From the NCBI RefSeq assembly GCF_009914755.1, contig NC_060930.1: 64,000 nucleotides of DNA; one strand, 5' to 3'. Of this stretch, positions 27,711 to 35,618 are shown piece by piece (positions within the stretch are counted from its first letter, which is position 1; each line of letters opens with the position of its first letter). The translations under genes and the position numbers were made by a program. The DNA is from the human T2T-CHM13v2.0 reference genome, Homo sapiens. The notes under the pieces are model-generated. The model saw only the letters and a program-made list of their open reading frames with translations. It was not told where the DNA came from and did no database searches.

Positions 27711-29134
27711 CCCTTGCTGAAACCAAGGTCCAGAGAGTGAAGTGATGTTCAAGGTCACATAGCAAAACAGAGGTTGATTCTGCTACCCCTGATATCCTCT
27801 TCCACATAGGCTCTTCATGGTCTGAGTTTGGAAAACTCATCTTGTCTGTGTGCACCTGGGTTGTGATAGCTTCCCCAGCTTTCATCAAACCCTTAATTCT
27901 GTTGTGCTGCCCCCTGGTGACAAGGATTATCTACTACAGCTACAGAATTTGGCCCAAGCATGCTCCTCCCTCTGTATTCATTCAGTTGACAAATATTTAT
28001 TGAGATCTACACTATGCCAGTCACCTTCTAGACACTGGAGCTTCAGTAGTAAAAAAGCAACGCACTATCTCTGTCAAACACATTAAATAACACACAAGGC
28101 TATGGAGATGATATATCAGAGAAGGGACAGGCATAGTGGCTGGAGAATTGCAAGTTTAAATCATGTGTTCCTAGGTTGACCTCTCTGGAAATAAGACGTT
28201 TGAGACAAGATTTGAAGGAAGTGAGGGCATAAGCCGTGCTGGGGCCAGGGGAAGCATGGCCTGGGCAGCAGAAATGTGAAGATGCCAAGGATCAAGAGGG
28301 CATCTGCTGGTTCTGAGGAACGGTAAAGAGGCCATTGTGCTCTGAGCTGAGTGAGATGCAGAGAATAGAGACAAGCACAGTGCCATGCAAAGGCAGAGAA
28401 GGGAAGGACCAGTGGGGCCTGCAGGCTGGAGCAAGAGTTTGGTTTTTCTCTGGATATGGGGACTGTTGGTGCCGTGACTCGGATCGGGGGACCTCCCTTG
28501 GGAGATCAATCCCCTGTCCTCCTGTTCTTTGCTCCGTGAGAAAGATCCACCTACGACCTCAGGTCCTCAGACCGACCAGCCCAAGGAACATCTCACCAAT
28601 TTTAAATCGGGTAAGTGGCCTCTTCTTACTCTTCTCCAACCTCTCTCACTGTCCCTCAACCACTTTCTCCTTTCCACTCTTCAATCTCTCCCTTCTCTTA
28701 ATTTCAATTCCTTTCATTTTCTGGGAGAGACAAAGGAGACACGTTTTATCAGTGGACCCAAAACTCTGGCACTGGTCACGGACTGGGAAGGCAGCCTTCC
28801 CTTGGTGTTTAATCATTGCAGGGACGCCTCTGATTATACACCCACGTTTCAAGGGTGTCAGACCACGCAGGGACGCCTGCCTTGGTCCTTCACCCTTAGC
28901 AGCAAGTCCCGCTTTTCTGGGGAAGGGGCAAGTACCTCAACCCCTTCTCTCCTTGTCTCTACCCCTTCTCTGCTTTTCCAGGGACAGGGCAAGTACCCCA
29001 ACCCCTTCTCTCCTTGTCTCTACCCCTTCTCTGTTTTTCTGGGAGAGGGGCAAGTACCCCTCAACCCCTTCTCCTTCACTCTTAGCGGCAAGTCCCGCTT
29101 TTCTAGAGGAGGGGCAAGTACCCCAACCTCATAC

Positions 29135-29280
29135 CTCTGTGCCCCAATCCCTTATTTCTGCACCCCAACCTCTTATCTGTGTGCCCCAATCCCTTATTTC
29201 TGTGCCCCAACCCCTTATTTCTGCACCCCATCCCTTATTTCCGTGCCCCGACCTCTTATCTCTGCGCCCCAACCCATTTT
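29135..29280 (+). repeat. HERV-H leader tandem repeat of ~21-nt units
   Basis: Repeated CCCCAA(T/C)CCCTTATTTCTG(T)GC-like units. Confidence 0.85.
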
Positions 29281-30206
29281 CCCACTTTTCTGGAAGGTAA
29301 GAACCCCCGAACCCCTTCTCTCCATTTCTCTACTCTCTCTTTATGGGCAACCTTCTACCCTCCATTCCTCCTCCTACTCCCTTGGCCTGTGTTCTCAAAA
29401 ACTTAAAACCTCTTTAACACCTGACCTAAAACCTAAATGCCTTATTTTCTTCTGCAATGCCGCTTGACCCCAATACAAACTTGACAGTAGTTCCAAATAG
29501 CCAGAAAATGGCACTTTGAATTTTTCCATCCTGCAATATCTAAATAATTCTTGTCTTAAAATAGGCAAACAGTCTGAGGTGCCTGACGTCCAGGCATTCT
29601 TTTACACATCAGTCCCTTCCTAGTCTCTGTGCCCAGTGCAACTCGTCCCAAATCTTCCTTCTTTCCCTCCCACCTGTCCCCTCAGTTCCAACCCCAAGCG
29701 TCACTGAGTCTTTCTAATCTTCCTTTTCTACAGACCCATCTGACCTCTCCCTTCCTCCCCAGGCTGCTCCTCGCCAGGCCGAGCTAGGTCCCAATTCTTC
29801 CTCAGCCTCCGCTCCTCCACCCTATAATCCTTTATCACCTCCCCTCCTCACACCTGGTCCGGCTTAGTTTCGTTCCGTGACTAGCCCTCCCCCTCCCGCC
29901 CAGCAATTTACTCTTAAAAAGGTGGCTGGAGCTAAAGGCATAGTCAAGGTTAATGCTCCTTTTTCTTTATCCCAAATCAGATAGCGTTTAGGCTCTTTTT
30001 CATCAAATATAAAAATCCAGCCCAGTTCATGGCTCGTTTGGCAGCAACCCTGAGACACTTTACAGCCCTAGACCCTAAAAGGTCAAAAGGCTGTCTTATT
30101 CTCAAAATACATTTTATTACCCAATCTGCTCCTGACATTAAAACTCCAAAAATTAAATTCCAGCCCTCAAACCCCACAACAGGATTTAATTAACCTCGCC
30201 TTCAAG

Positions 30207-32750
30207 GTGTACAATAATAGAAAAAAGTTGCAATTCCTTGCCTCCACTGTGAGACAAACCCCAGCCACATCTCCAGCGCACAAGAACTTCCAAATGCCTG
30301 AACGGCAGTGGCCAGGCGTTCCTCCAGAACCTCCTCCCACAGGAGCTTGCTACACATGCCGGAAATCTGGCCACTGGGCCAAGGAATGCCCGCAGCCCGG
30401 GATTCCTCCTAAGCCGCGTCCCATCTGTGTGGGACCCCACTGAAAATTGGACTGTTCAACTCACCTGGCAGCCACTCCCACAGCCCATGGAACTCTGGCC
30501 CAAGGCTCTTTGACTGACTCCTTCCCAGATCTTCTCGGCTTAGCAGCTGAAGACTGACACTGCCCGATCTCCTCGGAAGCCCCCTAGACCATCACGGACA
30601 CCGAGCTTCGGGTAACTCTCACAGTGGAAGGTAAGCCCGTCCCCTTCTTAATCAATACGGAGGCTACCCACTGCACATTACCTTTTTTTCAAGGGCCTGT
30701 TTCCCTTGCCTCCATAACTGTTGTGGGTATTGATGGCCAGGCTTCTAAACCTCTTAAAACTCCCCAACTCTGGTGCCAACTTAGACAATACTCTTTTAAG
30801 CACTCCTTTTTAGTTATCCCCACCTGCCCAGTTCCCTTATTAGGCTGAGACACTTTAATTATCTGCTTCCCTGACTATTCCTGGACTACAGCTATATCTC
30901 ATTGCCGCCCTTCTTCCCAATCCAAAGCCTCCTTTGCATCCTCCTCTTGTATCCCCCCAACCTTAACCCACAAGTATAAGATACCTCTACTCCCTCTTAG
31001 GCAACCGATCATGCACCCCTTACCATCTCATTAAAACCTAATCACCTTTACCCTACTCAACGCCAATATTCCATCCCGCAGCACACTTTAAAAAGATTAA
31101 AGCCTGTTATCACTCGCCTGCTACAGCATGGCCTTTTAAAGCCTATAAACTCTCCTTACAATTCCCCCATTTTACCTGTCCTAAAACCAGACAAGCCTTA
31201 CAAGTTAGTTCAGGATCTGCACCTTATCAACCAAATTGTTTTGCCTATCCACCCGGTGGTGCCAAACCCATACACTCTCCTATCCTCAATACCTGCCTCT
31301 ACAACCCATTATTCTGTTCTAGATCTCAAACATGCTTTCTTTACTATTCCTTTGCACCCTCAATCCCAGCCTCTCTTCGCTTTCACTTGGACTGACCCTG
31401 ACACCCATTAAGCTCAGCAAATTACCTAGGCTGTACTGCCGCAAAGCTTCACAGACAGCCCCCATTACTTCAATCAAGCCCAAATTTCTTCCTCATCTGT
31501 TACCTATCTCGGCATAATTCTCATAAAAACACACGTGCTCTTCCTGCCAATCGTGTCCGACTGATCTCTCAAACCCCAGCACCTTCTACAAAACAACAAC
31601 TTCTTTCCTTCCTAGGCATGGTTAGCACGGTCAGAATTCTTACACAAGAGCCAGGACCACACCCTGTAGCCTTTCTGTCCAAACAACTTGACCTTACTGT
31701 TTTAGCCTAGCCCTCACGTCTGCATGCAGCAGCTGCCGCTGCTTTAATACTTTTAGAGGCCCTCAAAATCACAAACTATGCTCAACTCACTCTCTACAGT
31801 TCTCATAACTTCCAAAATCTATTTTCTTCCTCATACCTGACGCATATACTTTCTGCTCCCCGGCTCCTTCAGCTGTAGTCACTCTTTAAGTCCCACAATT
31901 ACCATTGTTCCTGGCCTGGACTTCAATCTGGCCTCCCATGTTATTCCTGATACCACACCTGACCCCCATGACTGTATCTCTCTGATCCACCTGATATTCA
32001 CCCCATTTCCCCATATTTCCTTCTTTCCTGTTCCTCACCCTGATCACGCTTGATTTATTGATGGCGGTTCCACCAGGCCTAATCGCCACACACCAGCAAA
32101 GGCAGGTTATGCTATAGTACAAGCCACTAGCCCGCCTCTTAGAACCTCTCATTTCCTTTCCATCGTGGAAATCTATCCTCAAGGAAATAACTTCTCAGTG
32201 TTCCATCTGCTATTCTACTGCTCCTCAGGGATTATTCAGGTCCCCTCCCTTCCCTACACATCAAGCTCGAGGATTTGCCCCACCCAGGACTGGCAAATTA
32301 GCTTTACTCAACATGCCCTGAGTCGGATAACTAAAATACCTCTTAGTCTAGGTAGATACTTTCACTGGATAGGTAGAGGCCTTTCCTACAGGGTCTGAGA
32401 AGGCCACCGCAGTCATTTCTTCCGTTCTGTCAGACATAATTCCTCAGTTTAGCCTTCCCACCTCAATACAGTCTGATAACAGATGAGCCTTTATTAGTCA
32501 AATCAGCCAAGCAGTTTTTCAGGCTCTTAGTATTCAGTGAAACCTTTATATCCCTTACGGTCCTCCGTCTTCAAGAAAAGTAGAATGGACTAAAGGTCTT
32601 TTAAAAACACACCTCACCAAGCTCAGCCACCGAAAAGGACTGGACAATACTTTTACCACTTTCCCTTCTCAGAATTCAGGCCTGTCCTCGGAATGCTACA
32701 GGGTACAGCCCATTTAAGCTCCTGTATAGACGCTCCTTTTTATTAGGCCC
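30207..32750 (+). pseudogene. Disabled HERV-H gag-pro-pol
   Basis: CCHC knuckle CYTCRKSGHWAKEC, protease-like LINTEAT (catalytic DTG degenerate), RT-like YSVLDLKHAFFTIPL, integrase remnant; many stops, frameshifts and deletions. Confidence 0.9.
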
Positions 32751-33370
32751 CAGTCTCATTCCAGACACCAGACCAACTTAGACTGTGCCCCCCAAAAAAC
32801 TTGTCATCCCTACTATCTTCTGTCTAGTCATACTCCTATTCACCGTTCTCAACTACTCATACATGCCCTGCTCTTGTTTACACTGCCGGTTTACACTGTT
32901 TTTCCAAGCCATCACAGCTGATATCTCCTGGTGCTATCCCCAAACTGCCACTCCTAACTCTTGAAGTAAATAAATAATCTTTGCTGGCAGGACTATGCTG
33001 AATCTCCTTAGGCACTCTCTAATCAGATATCCTGAGTCGTCCCAATTCTTAGAACTTTTATACCTGTTTTTCTCCTTCTGTTATTCCATTTAGTTTCTCA
33101 ATTCATCCAAAACCGTGTCCAGGCCATCACCAATCATTCTATACGACAAACTTTTCTTCTAACATCCCCACAATATCACCCCTTACCACAAGACCTCCCT
33201 TCAGCTTAATCTCTCCCACTCTAGGTTCCCACGCCGCCCCAATCCCGCTTGAAGCAGCCCGGAGAAACATCGCCCATTCTCTCTCCGTACCACCCCCCAA
33301 AAATTTTCGCTGCCCCAACACTTCAACACTATTTTGTTTTATTTTTCTTATTAATATAAGAGGGCAGGAA

Positions 33371-33822
33371 TGTCAGGCCTCTGAGCCCAAGCCAAGCCAT
33401 CGCATCCCCTGTGACTTGCACGTATAAGCCCAGATGGCCTGAAGTAACTGAAGAATCACAAAAGAAGTGAATATGCCCTGCCCCACCTTAACTGATGACA
33501 TTCCACCACAAAAGAAGTGTAAATGGCCGGTCCTTGCCTTAAGTGATGACATTACCTTGTGAAAGTCCTTTTCCTGGCTCATCCTGGCTCAAAAACACCC
33601 CCACTGAGCACCTTGCGACCCCCACTCCTGCCCGCCAGAGAACAAACCCCCTTTGACTGTAATTTTCCTTTACCTGCCCAAATCCTATAAAACGGCCCCA
33701 CTCTTATCTCCCTTTGCTGACTCTCTTTTCGGACTCAGCCCGCCTGCACCCAGGTGAAATAAACAGCCATGTTGCTCACACAAAGCCTGTTTGGTGGTCT
33801 CTTCATACGGACGCGCATGAAA
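33371..33822 (+). promoter_or_regulatory. LTR7 (3' LTR), LTR7up-like
   Basis: TGTCAGGCCTCTGAGCCCAAG start, two CACAAAAGAAGTG blocks, TATAAAA, AATAAA, GCGCATGAAA end. Confidence 0.92.
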
Positions 33823-35618
33823 GGGACCACTGGCCTTTCGTGAGTAGAGGTATGACATGAACCTTCGGAAGCCTTTGGAGTCAGTCCTCTGACTGCTGCA
33901 TTGCGAATACACAGGAGTGGGGGCCACAGTGGAAGTAGAGAGGCCTAGCATGAGGCCATTGCAATAACAGAGACAAAACGATGGCAGTGAGTAGTGGGGA
34001 GACAGCTGTGAGGCAAGACCCTGTACATGTCCTGAAGTTAGAGCCATTAGCCTTTGCTGATGATGTGATGTAGGAGGTGTGGGAAAGAGACACATCAATG
34101 TTGACCCCCAAATGTTCTACCTGAACATGAAAGAATGGAGTGGCCATTAAATGTGATAAGAAAAGGCTGAGTGAGAAGCAGATTCTCAGAAGAAGATGAG
34201 GAGCTCAGTTTAGAACGTGTCAATGTTTCTATTTATTTACATATTGATTACTTACAGTGCTCTTCCTTCCCTCATGTAGATCCAAATTAGCATCTGGTAT
34301 AATTTTCCTTCTATCAGAAGAACTTCCTTTAACATTTCTTTTAGTCCACATCTGCTGGTGACTAATCCCCTCAGCATTTTCTGAAAACATCTTCATTTTA
34401 CTTTCAATTTTGAAAGATATTTTCACTGGATATGGAATTCTGGGTCAGCAGTTCCTGCCTCCCCCCACCTCCTACCCCTACCCCAATCAATAACTTTGGT
34501 TGCTTCAATGTCTTCTGACTTTTATAGTTTCTGACAAGAATTCTTTTGTCATACTGATCTTTGTCCTTTGAATTTAATATACTTTTCTTTCCTGGTTGAG
34601 CTGAAACTGTTTGCTTCGTCATGTGTTTTCAGCAATTTGATTATGGTATGCCTTGGTGTGGTGCCCTGTATGTAAGTCCTAATAAACTCATCTAGTTGTC
34701 AAGCTGGACTTGTCTGAGTCATTCTCTGGTCTCTCAGCACCTTCCTTGTTTGTGGGGGGAGAATGTTATAGTCCTAAGTTTTTCTCATAACGGTAGTTTC
34801 ACTTGATATGCTGGAGGGTATTGCCAATAGGCAAAGGAAATCTTTTTTCTCTCCTTTCCATTTTATAGGGCTTATCACTGGAACCCAGTATTTTCTTTCT
34901 TTTAAAATTATATGCATACATATACATAAATTATGCACATACATGTGTGTGTGTGTATATATATGTGTATATATATATATATATGTAGTCTGTGACAAAG
35001 CTTCAGGAGGTCCTGAGAACATGTGCCCCTGGTGTGGTTTTCTTTGTGTTTCTTCTGTTTGGGGTTCTTAGAGGTTCTGGGATATGTGGGTTTATGTTTT
35101 CATCAAATTAAGAACATTTTTTATCATTTTTTTTAAGGGTTTTTTTTCTGTCAATTCTCTTTACTGAGTCTTCAACTACATGCTGTTAGATTGCTTGATA
35201 GTGTCAAACAGTATCATTGATAAGGTCATGATGCTTTGTTCATTTTTTAAAAAGTCTTTTTTTCTCTGCGCTTTATCTAGGACATTTTCTATTGCTTTAA
35301 GTTTACTTTAATATTTTTAAGTTCACTGATCTTCAATTTTGTAGGGTTTAATCTGTTGTTAATCTTTTCCATTATATTTTTAATTTCTGATATTGTATTT
35401 TTATCAGTGCAAACTATGTGTAATTCTTTTTATAATATTTCTACCACTTCTTCCCTCATAATGTTAATATTTTCTTCCACTTCCCTGATTGTATGGAGTA
35501 TAATTATAGTAGAATTTGAAATTTTCTGTCTGCTAATTTCATCATCTCTGTAAATCTGGTTCTGTTGCTATTGAGTGACTTTCCTTTTGGTTATGGGTCA
35601 TATATCCTCCTTCTTTGA

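What the first reader, a model, noticed from the sequence alone, without database searches (positions are those of the whole stretch)
28459..33827. HERV-H provirus lacking its entire 5' LTR but keeping both target-site duplications
Seen: the left junction is GGGAC-TGT-TGGTGCCGTGACTCGGAT (TSD, 3 nt, then the tRNA-His PBS); the right junction is ...GCGCATGAAA-GGGAC. TGT equals the first 3 nt of the 3' LTR (TGTCAGG). The host L2 reads straight across the site, so no flanking DNA was lost. Established: proviruses integrate with two LTRs and usually decay to solo LTRs. Inference: either a near-precise ~450-bp deletion confined to the LTR, or integration of an aberrant cDNA from a failed or misdirected second strand transfer, whose minus strand ends ...GGCACCAACA-3', the CA end integrase needs. 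The element is promoterless and cannot collapse to a solo LTR by LTR-LTR recombination.
Basis: partly seen in the sequence, partly recalled or inferred. Interest (0 to 1): 0.8.

Follow-up and report, generated by a model that had tools for sequence, protein, structure and literature searches.

The report
HERV-H provirus missing its left LTR
An old HERV-H retrovirus copy on human chromosome 6 has the normal 5-base host duplication on both sides and a complete right LTR, but on the left only two or three LTR bases are joined directly to the tRNA primer site, so it was probably inserted from a faulty DNA copy or, less likely, lost that LTR later by an unusually exact deletion.

Summary
GGGAC (28459-28463) is followed by TGT and then an 18/18 tRNA-His PBS (28467-28484). 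A complete 452-bp LTR7 (33371-33822) ends ...CATGAAA and is followed by GGGAC. Normal HERV-H copies have a 5-bp TSD at exactly these positions (5 of 6 perfect) and read ...CATGAAATT-PBS. This copy therefore lacks LTR bases 3/4-452 and one or two spacer bases.

Among 426 genomic copies with PBS plus leader, it is the only one whose break lies within 4 nt of the PBS. It is a singleton, not a class. It is not an L1-made retrocopy; a real one, L009, looks quite different.

Best reading (about 0.55): a reverse-transcription product that never built its left LTR was integrated. Both breakpoints sit at natural ends of replication intermediates. Pre-integration loss of the 5' LTR is reported for HTLV-1 and modelled for HIV-1.

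Rival (about 0.38): a later end-joining deletion with 1-nt microhomology.

Only orthologous ape loci can decide, and none were available. The L2 continuity claim could not be tested. Interest is moderate.

The parts
28459..28463 (+). Left copy of the 5-bp target-site duplication (GGGAC)
   Evidence: Read. It is identical to 33823-33827. Its position abutting the first proviral base matches 6 normal copies.
28464..28466 (+). TGT: the residue of the left proviral end, equal to the first 3 bases of LTR7. The third T could instead be the T that normally precedes the PBS.
   Evidence: The LTR7 start TGTCAGG is shown. The normal bases before the PBS are ATT (408 of 426 copies).
28467..28484 (+). Primer binding site, an 18/18 match to the HERV-H tRNA-His PBS
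   Evidence: The same 18-mer occurs 225 times in the genome, and all 30 of the 30 occurrences fetched lie in HERV-H.
28485..33357 (+). HERV-H internal region (leader, broken gag, pro, start of pol, remainder). The size fits the common short form.
   Evidence: The leader matches other HERV-H copies at about 80-91%. Pfam hits lie in the order gag-pro-pol on the + strand.
29954..30193 (+). Gag p30 remnant (open stretch)
   Evidence: PF02093, E 1e-4, below the curated cut-off.
30072..30443 (+). Open stretch holding the nucleocapsid zinc knuckle
   Evidence: PF00098, E 4.7e-7.
30588..30848 (+). Protease remnant
   Evidence: PF00077, E 1.8e-6.
31001..31411 (+). N-terminal part of reverse transcriptase
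   Evidence: PF00078, E 4.2e-6, profile positions 3-96 of 205 only.
33358..33370 (+). Polypurine tract (AAGAGGGCAGGAA) abutting the LTR
   Evidence: Read. The name is from general retrovirus knowledge.
33371..33822 (+). Complete 3' LTR7 (452 bp) with TATAAAA at 33686-33692 and AATAAA at 33758-33763
   Evidence: It aligns over 1-452 to 5' LTRs of other copies, best 96.5%. The end ...CATGAAA is the same as in 6 normal copies.
33823..33827 (+). Right copy of the 5-bp target-site duplication (GGGAC)

Best explanation
This is a HERV-H provirus that was integrated from a reverse-transcription product which never built its left LTR.

Shown:
- The element is PBS-internal-LTR.
- It is flanked by the family's normal 5-bp duplication.
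- Only TG(T) lies between the duplication and the PBS.

Inferred:
- Minus-strand DNA was completed normally. This is why the right LTR is whole and ends at the exact U5 terminus.
- Its 3' end stopped at the PBS, which is where the minus strand ends before the second (plus-strand) transfer.
- The step that copies U5-R-U3 onto that end failed or jumped, so only the terminal bases of U3 (...TG) became attached to it. This could happen by a template jump to the 5' tip of the plus strand, or by a premature plus-strand transfer. A less likely route is addition of untemplated bases.
- Integrase then joined this pseudo-end and the normal U5 end to host DNA in one concerted reaction, giving the 5-bp duplication.

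Consequences: the copy has no sense-strand promoter of its own and cannot collapse to a solo LTR. Its intact right LTR can still act on downstream DNA.
For: 1. Both breakpoints lie within 0-3 nt of natural ends of replication intermediates. One is the first bases of U3, the 5' end of plus-strand DNA. The other is the PBS edge, the 3' end of minus-strand DNA before the second transfer.
2. The TSD has the canonical length and register, with a chance match rate of 0.19%. The right end is the exact U5 terminus. Together these point to integrase joining both ends.
3. TGT cannot be a decayed ATT without two substitutions in 3 bases, next to an 18/18 intact PBS.
4. No direct repeat longer than 1 nt flanks the missing segment, so there is no sequence reason for a host deletion to choose these points.
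5. Precedent in print:
- A review passage (PMC4690875) states that Miyazaki et al. found 41% of HTLV-1 type 2 defective proviruses lacking the 5' LTR were formed before integration.
- Hardy et al. 2025 (PMC12657518; Results read, Discussion passages) model 'premature second-strand transfer' giving defective 5' LTRs. 20 of their 23 large deletions start upstream of the PBS.
- The same paper cites work showing that a canonical CA is not strictly needed at the U3 end in RSV, and that HIV-1 proviruses with a truncated U3 terminus are found integrated.
6. The flanks are single copy in the genome, so this is not a duplicated fragment.
Against: - It is a single case. Of 426 copies with PBS and leader, no other has a break within 4 nt of the PBS. 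There is therefore no recurrent signature of a mechanism.
- Every concrete route needs an unusual step: a jump after only 4-5 nt of plus strand, a skip over about 450 nt of template, or untemplated CA.
- Integrase normally needs more than 2-3 terminal LTR bases.
- The copy is old (nearest LTRs 96.5%, leader about 90%), leaving ample time for a later deletion.
- No ortholog or allele could be examined, so the timing is not shown.
- The single-stranded LTR does not fold into a panhandle that would bring its ends together.
Confidence: 0.55

Rival explanations
1. A normal two-LTR provirus was integrated, and a single end-joining or replication-slippage deletion of about 451 bp later removed LTR bases 3/4-452 plus 1-2 spacer bases.
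For: - The junction has 1 nt of possible microhomology (T), which is typical of end joining.
- The copy is old.
- It is a singleton among 426 copies, as an accident would be.
- Other kinds of 5' LTR damage exist in the family. L014 has LTR 1-33 joined to 341-452, and LTR lengths range from 138 to 750 bp among 53 loci.
Against: - Both breakpoints must fall by chance within 2-3 nt of the two LTR edges while leaving the TSD untouched.
- No repeat longer than 1 nt marks them.
- My rough expectation for such a coincidence over about 700-1000 HERV-H proviruses is far below one event. This is an inference from assumed deletion rates, not computed from data; the provirus number comes from PMC6298018, passage.
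- In the held sample, the one 5' LTR with an internal deletion (L014) keeps 33 LTR bases on the left, and the two U3-less 5' LTRs (L009, L036) begin at LTR position 346; none of these breaks lies within a few bases of the left LTR edge.
Confidence: 0.38
2. The two GGGAC copies match by chance. The element is a 5'-truncated fragment produced by a larger rearrangement or by a deletion reaching host DNA.
For: A 5-mer is short. The L2 continuity that would prove an undisturbed site could not be tested.
Against: The match is in exactly the canonical register on both sides. The chance rate is 0.19%. TG follows the left copy as at a true proviral end.
Confidence: 0.03
3. It is an assembly artefact: a real 5' LTR was collapsed out of the assembly.
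For: None found. It is listed only because no reads could be examined.
Against: The junction is clean to the base. The mask in NCBI's file starts at 28464 (hub table). The sequence comes from a telomere-to-telomere assembly, where collapse of one 450-bp LTR 4.9 kb from its twin would be unusual (general knowledge).
Confidence: 0.02
4. It is an L1-made retrocopy (processed pseudogene) of a HERV-H transcript.
For: Such copies exist in this family. L009 starts at LTR position 346 (about 25 nt after the TATA box) and ends at LTR position 412 (about 20 nt after AATAAA). It is followed by an A run and flanked by a direct repeat of at least 14 bp.
Against: The window copy has no R-U5 at its 5' end. 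It has a full U5 to the last base at its 3' end, no A tail, and a 5-bp rather than a long duplication.
Confidence: 0.01

Closest known systems
HTLV-1 type 2 defective proviruses formed before integration (Miyazaki et al. 2007, seen only as cited in the review PMC4690875)
   Same: The provirus lacks the 5' LTR but keeps the 3' LTR. Part of that class is reported to arise before integration.
   Different: Those are somatic proviruses of an exogenous deltaretrovirus, and they also lack internal 5' sequence. Here the break is exactly at the PBS, in a germ-line gammaretrovirus-like element. I could not read the primary paper, so its junction details are unknown to me.
HIV-1 proviruses with deletions ascribed to premature second-strand transfer (Hardy et al. 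2025, PMC12657518)
   Same: The deletion begins in the 5' LTR and is explained by plus-strand DNA leaving its template before strong-stop DNA is complete. The 3' LTR is unaffected.
   Different: In HIV-1 the deletions start at varied LTR positions and end further downstream, and matched integration sites were not sequenced. Here only 2-3 LTR bases remain, the deletion ends at the natural acceptor (the PBS), and both host junctions with the TSD are visible.
L1-mediated retrocopies of ERV transcripts (HERV-W type; the name is from PMC5016936 and PMC5537654, titles and abstracts; a HERV-H example is L009 here)
   Same: Both are a way for an ERV copy to lack part of its 5' LTR without a later deletion.
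   Different: Retrocopies start at R, end at R plus an A tail, and have long duplications. The window copy has none of these features.
One-LTR circles and nicked-circle reverse-transcription intermediates (general retrovirology, recalled)
   Same: The window element has the same content as a one-LTR form opened at the U5/PBS border: PBS-internal-LTR.
   Different: Circles are regarded as dead ends that do not integrate. The extra TG at the left end is not explained by simply opening a circle.

Membership tests
HERV-H (LTR7 / HERVH-int) provirus | tRNA-His primer binding site followed by the HERV-H leader | tested here: met
   18/18 PBS. The leader aligns to 58 of 75 held loci at 78-91%.
HERV-H (LTR7 / HERVH-int) provirus | LTR7-type LTR | tested here: met
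   The 452-bp 3' LTR aligns end to end with 5' LTRs of other copies, best 96.5%, with 50 hits of at least 400 bp.
HERV-H (LTR7 / HERVH-int) provirus | gag-pro-pol order on one strand | tested here: met
   Gag_p30, zf-CCHC, RVP and RVT_1 lie in this order on the + strand. All are fragments.
HERV-H (LTR7 / HERVH-int) provirus | 5-bp target-site duplication abutting TG... and ...AAA | tested here: met
   GGGAC on both sides. The rule was established on 6 normal copies.
HERV-H (LTR7 / HERVH-int) provirus | Two LTRs | tested here: not met
   There is no LTR7 sequence upstream of the PBS or elsewhere in the window. It is a member of the family with an abnormal structure.
Provirus that lost its 5' LTR before integration (HTLV-1 type 2 / HIV-1 premature second-strand transfer) | 5' LTR absent, 3' LTR intact | tested here: met
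Provirus that lost its 5' LTR before integration (HTLV-1 type 2 / HIV-1 premature second-strand transfer) | Family-typical duplication present at both ends of the defective element | tested here: met
Provirus that lost its 5' LTR before integration (HTLV-1 type 2 / HIV-1 premature second-strand transfer) | The defect existed at the moment of integration | not testable with these tools
   This needs orthologous primate loci or alleles. No primate genome other than the window's own is held.
L1-mediated ERV retrocopy | Starts at R, ends at R plus an A tail, long duplication | tested here: not met
   It starts at the PBS, ends at the last U5 base, and has a 5-bp duplication. Contrast L009.
Solo LTR from LTR-LTR recombination | A single LTR flanked directly by the duplication, with no internal sequence | tested here: not met
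   4.9 kb of internal sequence is retained.

The most novel reading that the evidence does not exclude
This locus is a germ-line fossil of a failed plus-strand transfer. The HERV-H integrase carried out a normal concerted integration, with the correct 5-bp duplication, using one true LTR end and one end made of the PBS capped by only the terminal TG of U3. If so, retroviral DNA without a left LTR can be integrated and fixed. Such copies would form a hidden category of proviruses that can never become solo LTRs.
Probability: 0.5. Interest if true: 0.55.

Novelty: new member of a known kind. Interest (0 to 1): 0.4.

Why it matters
If the defect dates from integration, the locus preserves both host junctions of an aberrant reverse-transcription product. 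Studies of HIV-1 defective proviruses say they lack exactly this information (PMC12657518, Discussion passage). It would show how little terminal sequence an integrase of this lineage needed at one end. It would also define a structural type of provirus that is immune to LTR-LTR recombination, which bears on models of provirus-to-solo-LTR decay in HERV-H. If the defect is a later deletion, the locus is an ordinary damaged provirus with a curious coincidence. In either case it is one locus, with no sign of a function beyond the regulatory marks on its remaining LTR.

Tried and rejected
1. L2 continuity across the site. Each flank finds only itself in the genome, plus one 53-bp hit for the left flank. 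An in-script empty-site reconstruction found no paralog spanning the junction in about 300 kb of held human DNA. Flank translations gave no LINE protein signal. The claim remains untested.

2. The G before the PBS as an inherited GT spacer variant. Two copies, L034 and L036, have ...AAAGT-PBS, but they are not clearly the closest relatives: 81.6%, and 91% over only 520 bp. Dropped.

3. The palindrome AAATTT at the U5/PBS border acting as a mimic of the U5 end. This would predict TSD-TTTGG, one base shorter than observed. Rejected on the sequence.

4. Use of the CA at the PBS edge as an alternative end. This would predict TSD-TGGTGCC, which is not what is seen.

5. A panhandle of the single-stranded LTR bringing its ends together. 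The fold of a normal 5' LTR plus PBS (L010) does not pair the termini and is no more stable than shuffles, z 0.46. Rejected.

Eight 2.2-kb pieces were used instead.

8. The primary HTLV-1 paper is not held. PMC3391691, PMC4062949 and PMC7877780 (passages) added nothing on junctions.

9. Five literature searches listed no paper whose title or abstract describes an endogenous provirus with TSD-TG-PBS. Of the papers they listed, only PMC6298018 and PMC6629862 were opened, and only as passages; these say nothing about such a structure. Subscription journals and supplements were not searched, so this does not prove that nothing is in print.
Full report
WHAT IS THERE

The window is human chromosome 6 (T2T assembly, per the hub table). 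Reading the two junctions directly:
- Left...GGATATGG-GGGAC(28459-28463)-TGT(28464-28466)-TGGTGCCGTGACTCGGAT(28467-28484)-CGGGGGACCTCC...
- Right: the 3' LTR starts TGTCAGG at 33371 just after a polypurine tract (33358-33370). It ends ...GCGCATGAAA at 33822 and is followed by GGGAC (33823-27).
- The PBS 18-mer and the LTR start each occur once in the window, even with three mismatches allowed.
- A sensitive blastn of the 452-bp LTR against the whole window finds only itself. No displaced left LTR lies nearby.
- Between PBS and LTR lie fragments of Gag p30, the zinc knuckle, protease and the first half of the RT domain, in that order on the + strand. This is the usual short, broken HERV-H interior.

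WHAT A NORMAL COPY LOOKS LIKE

The window's own genome can be searched by pattern.
- The exact PBS occurs 225 times.
- In the 30 loci fetched, the bases before it are ...CATGAAATT in 29 and ...GAAATTT in one, always preceded by U5.
- For eight proviruses I fetched a 2.2-kb piece where the 3' end was expected. Six contained it.
- In five of the six a perfect 5-bp repeat abuts TGTCAGG on the left and CATGAAA on the right. In the sixth, 4 of 5 bases match.
- So the family's duplication is 5 bp, the LTR starts TG and ends AAA, and two bases (TT) separate it from the PBS.
- The window copy obeys all of this on the right. On the left it obeys it up to the second or third base, then continues with the PBS.
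- The missing piece is LTR bases 3/4-452 plus one or two spacer bases. One T could come from either side.
- A 5-mer match at this spacing happens by chance at 0.19% of positions in this window (113 of 58,630).

IS IT A CLASS?

- With CpG decay allowed in the PBS and the first 12 leader bases required, the genome holds 426 copies.
- 408 of them have ATT before the PBS.
- I inspected the 18 others among the 55 matches of three complementary patterns, viewed after fetching the nine that had no locus. Seventeen have U5 upstream. One, the window copy, does not.
- Of the 408 ATT copies, 25 have something other than A one base further up. 24 have U5 and one is the second unit of a 65-bp internal duplication.
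- Of the remaining 383, I saw only 28, all with U5.
- A copy broken at the PBS would keep AATT by chance about once in 256, so the scan is close to complete for breaks within 4 nt of the PBS.
- Result: the window copy is unique.

BACKGROUND KINDS OF 5' LTR LOSS

Among 53 held HERV-H loci:
- One (L014) has LTR 1-33 joined to 341-452.
- Two (L009, L036) begin at LTR position 346, about 25 nt after the TATA box.

For L009 I fetched the other end. Its 3' LTR stops at position 412, about 20 nt after AATAAA. An A run follows, and a repeat of at least 14 bp matches the 5' flank. That is the anatomy of an L1-made retrocopy of a viral transcript. The window copy is the opposite: no R-U5 on the left, full U5 on the right, no A tail, and a 5-bp duplication.

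HOW IT AROSE

Two readings fit the sequence.

(a) Integration-time origin.
- Before the second strand transfer, the minus strand already carries the future right LTR, and its 3' end is the complement of the PBS.
- The left LTR is made only when that end is extended over plus-strand strong-stop DNA.
- If that step fails or jumps, the product is PBS-internal-LTR.
- The observed TG(T) equals the 5' tip of U3, which is the 5' end of plus-strand DNA. So both breakpoints coincide with natural ends of intermediates.
- The exact right end and the canonical duplication indicate that integrase joined both ends.
- Published precedent exists for the general event. A review states that 41% of HTLV-1 type 2 defective proviruses lacking the 5' LTR formed before integration (PMC4690875, passage; primary paper not held).
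- Hardy et al. 2025 model premature second-strand transfer as a source of defective 5' LTRs in HIV-1. They discuss integration of ends without the canonical terminus, citing work in RSV and HIV-1 (PMC12657518, Results, Discussion passages).

(b) Later deletion.
- A normal provirus lost about 451 bp by end joining, with 1 nt of microhomology.
- This needs no unusual enzymology and the copy is old (nearest LTR 96.5%, leader about 90%).
- But both ends of the deletion would have to fall by chance within 2-3 nt of the LTR edges, without any repeat to guide them.
- My rough expectation for that, over the roughly 720 HERV-H proviruses (PMC6298018, passage), is far below one. This is an inference from assumed rates, not a measurement.

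Weighing the two:
- I put (a) at about 0.55 and (b) at about 0.38.
- Every concrete version of (a) needs a rare step, and there is only one case.
This family's own U5 end is joined through AA, not CA, in 6 of 6 copies, so CA is not an absolute need for this integrase.

IDEAS THAT FAILED

- An inherited GT spacer.
- The AAATTT palindrome acting as a U5 mimic, which would give a junction one base shorter.
- Use of the CA at the PBS edge, which would give TSD-TGG.
- A panhandle fold of the single-stranded LTR (z 0.46, termini unpaired).

WHAT COULD NOT BE DONE

- No primate genome other than the window's own is held, so the decisive comparison of orthologous loci is open.
- The claim that a host L2 reads across the site could not be tested. 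The duplication itself is the only evidence here that no host DNA was lost.
- Five literature searches listed no paper whose title or abstract describes this structure in an endogenous retrovirus. Of the papers they listed I opened only PMC6298018 and PMC6629862, as passages. Subscription journals and supplementary tables of HERV-H locus catalogues were not seen and may list this locus.

VERDICT

The element is a HERV-H provirus of abnormal architecture, a singleton in this genome. It is most likely a new example, in an endogenous retrovirus, of the known phenomenon of proviruses that lost the 5' LTR before integration. A later near-exact deletion is not excluded. Interest is moderate.

Noticed in passing
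L009 (G000:C1 about 81.91 Mb, minus strand) with its other end in L109: A HERV-H copy built like an L1-made retrocopy. Its 5' LTR starts at LTR position 346 (about 25 nt after the TATA box). Its 3' LTR stops at position 412 (about 20 nt after AATAAA), followed by an A run and a flanking direct repeat of at least 14 bp.
   Followed up: yes
L036 (G000:C15 about 53.52 Mb, plus strand): A second HERV-H copy whose 5' LTR also starts at LTR position 346, in an unrelated A/T-rich flank. Like L009, it is preceded by TGTAG. The 3' end was not fetched, so the retrocopy reading is unchecked. It also has the rare ...AAAGT-PBS spacer.
   Followed up: partly
Six normal HERV-H proviruses on G000:C1 (L002, L005, L010, L012, L015, L016 with L077-L083): The right end of LTR7 is joined to host DNA through ...CATGAAA, that is AA rather than the CA usual for retroviral LTR ends, in 6 of 6 copies. 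The left end is the usual TG.
   Followed up: partly
L104/L105 (G000:C23:114420560-114420658): A tandem duplication of about 65 bp comprising the PBS and the first part of the leader inside one HERV-H copy, giving two PBS sites in a row.
   Followed up: no
L049, L057, L058, L063, L064, L065, L114 (various chromosomes): A repeated non-HERV-H sequence family carries an 18-mer equal to the CpG-decayed tRNA-His PBS. It is preceded by ...AACATACTT (ACGTACTT in L114) and followed in most copies (5 of the 7) by A(T/C)(G/A)TTCC; L063 and L064 differ there. I did not identify the family.
   Followed up: no
window 32811-33997: The hub's RefSeq table lists two enhancer features that together cover the end of the internal region, the whole 3' LTR and 170 bp of host flank. 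So the one remaining LTR carries regulatory annotation. I have no data on the assay behind it.
   Followed up: no
window 28317-29300 (+): A 327-codon stop-free stretch runs from host DNA across the left junction into the leader. It has no Pfam match and is probably a by-product of the C/T-rich leader.
   Followed up: partly
window 28886-29128: Internal direct repeats of about 57-96 bp lie within the leader (89% and 76% identity). This is a variable repeat region, which also explains why leader identities to other copies are lower than LTR identities.
   Followed up: no
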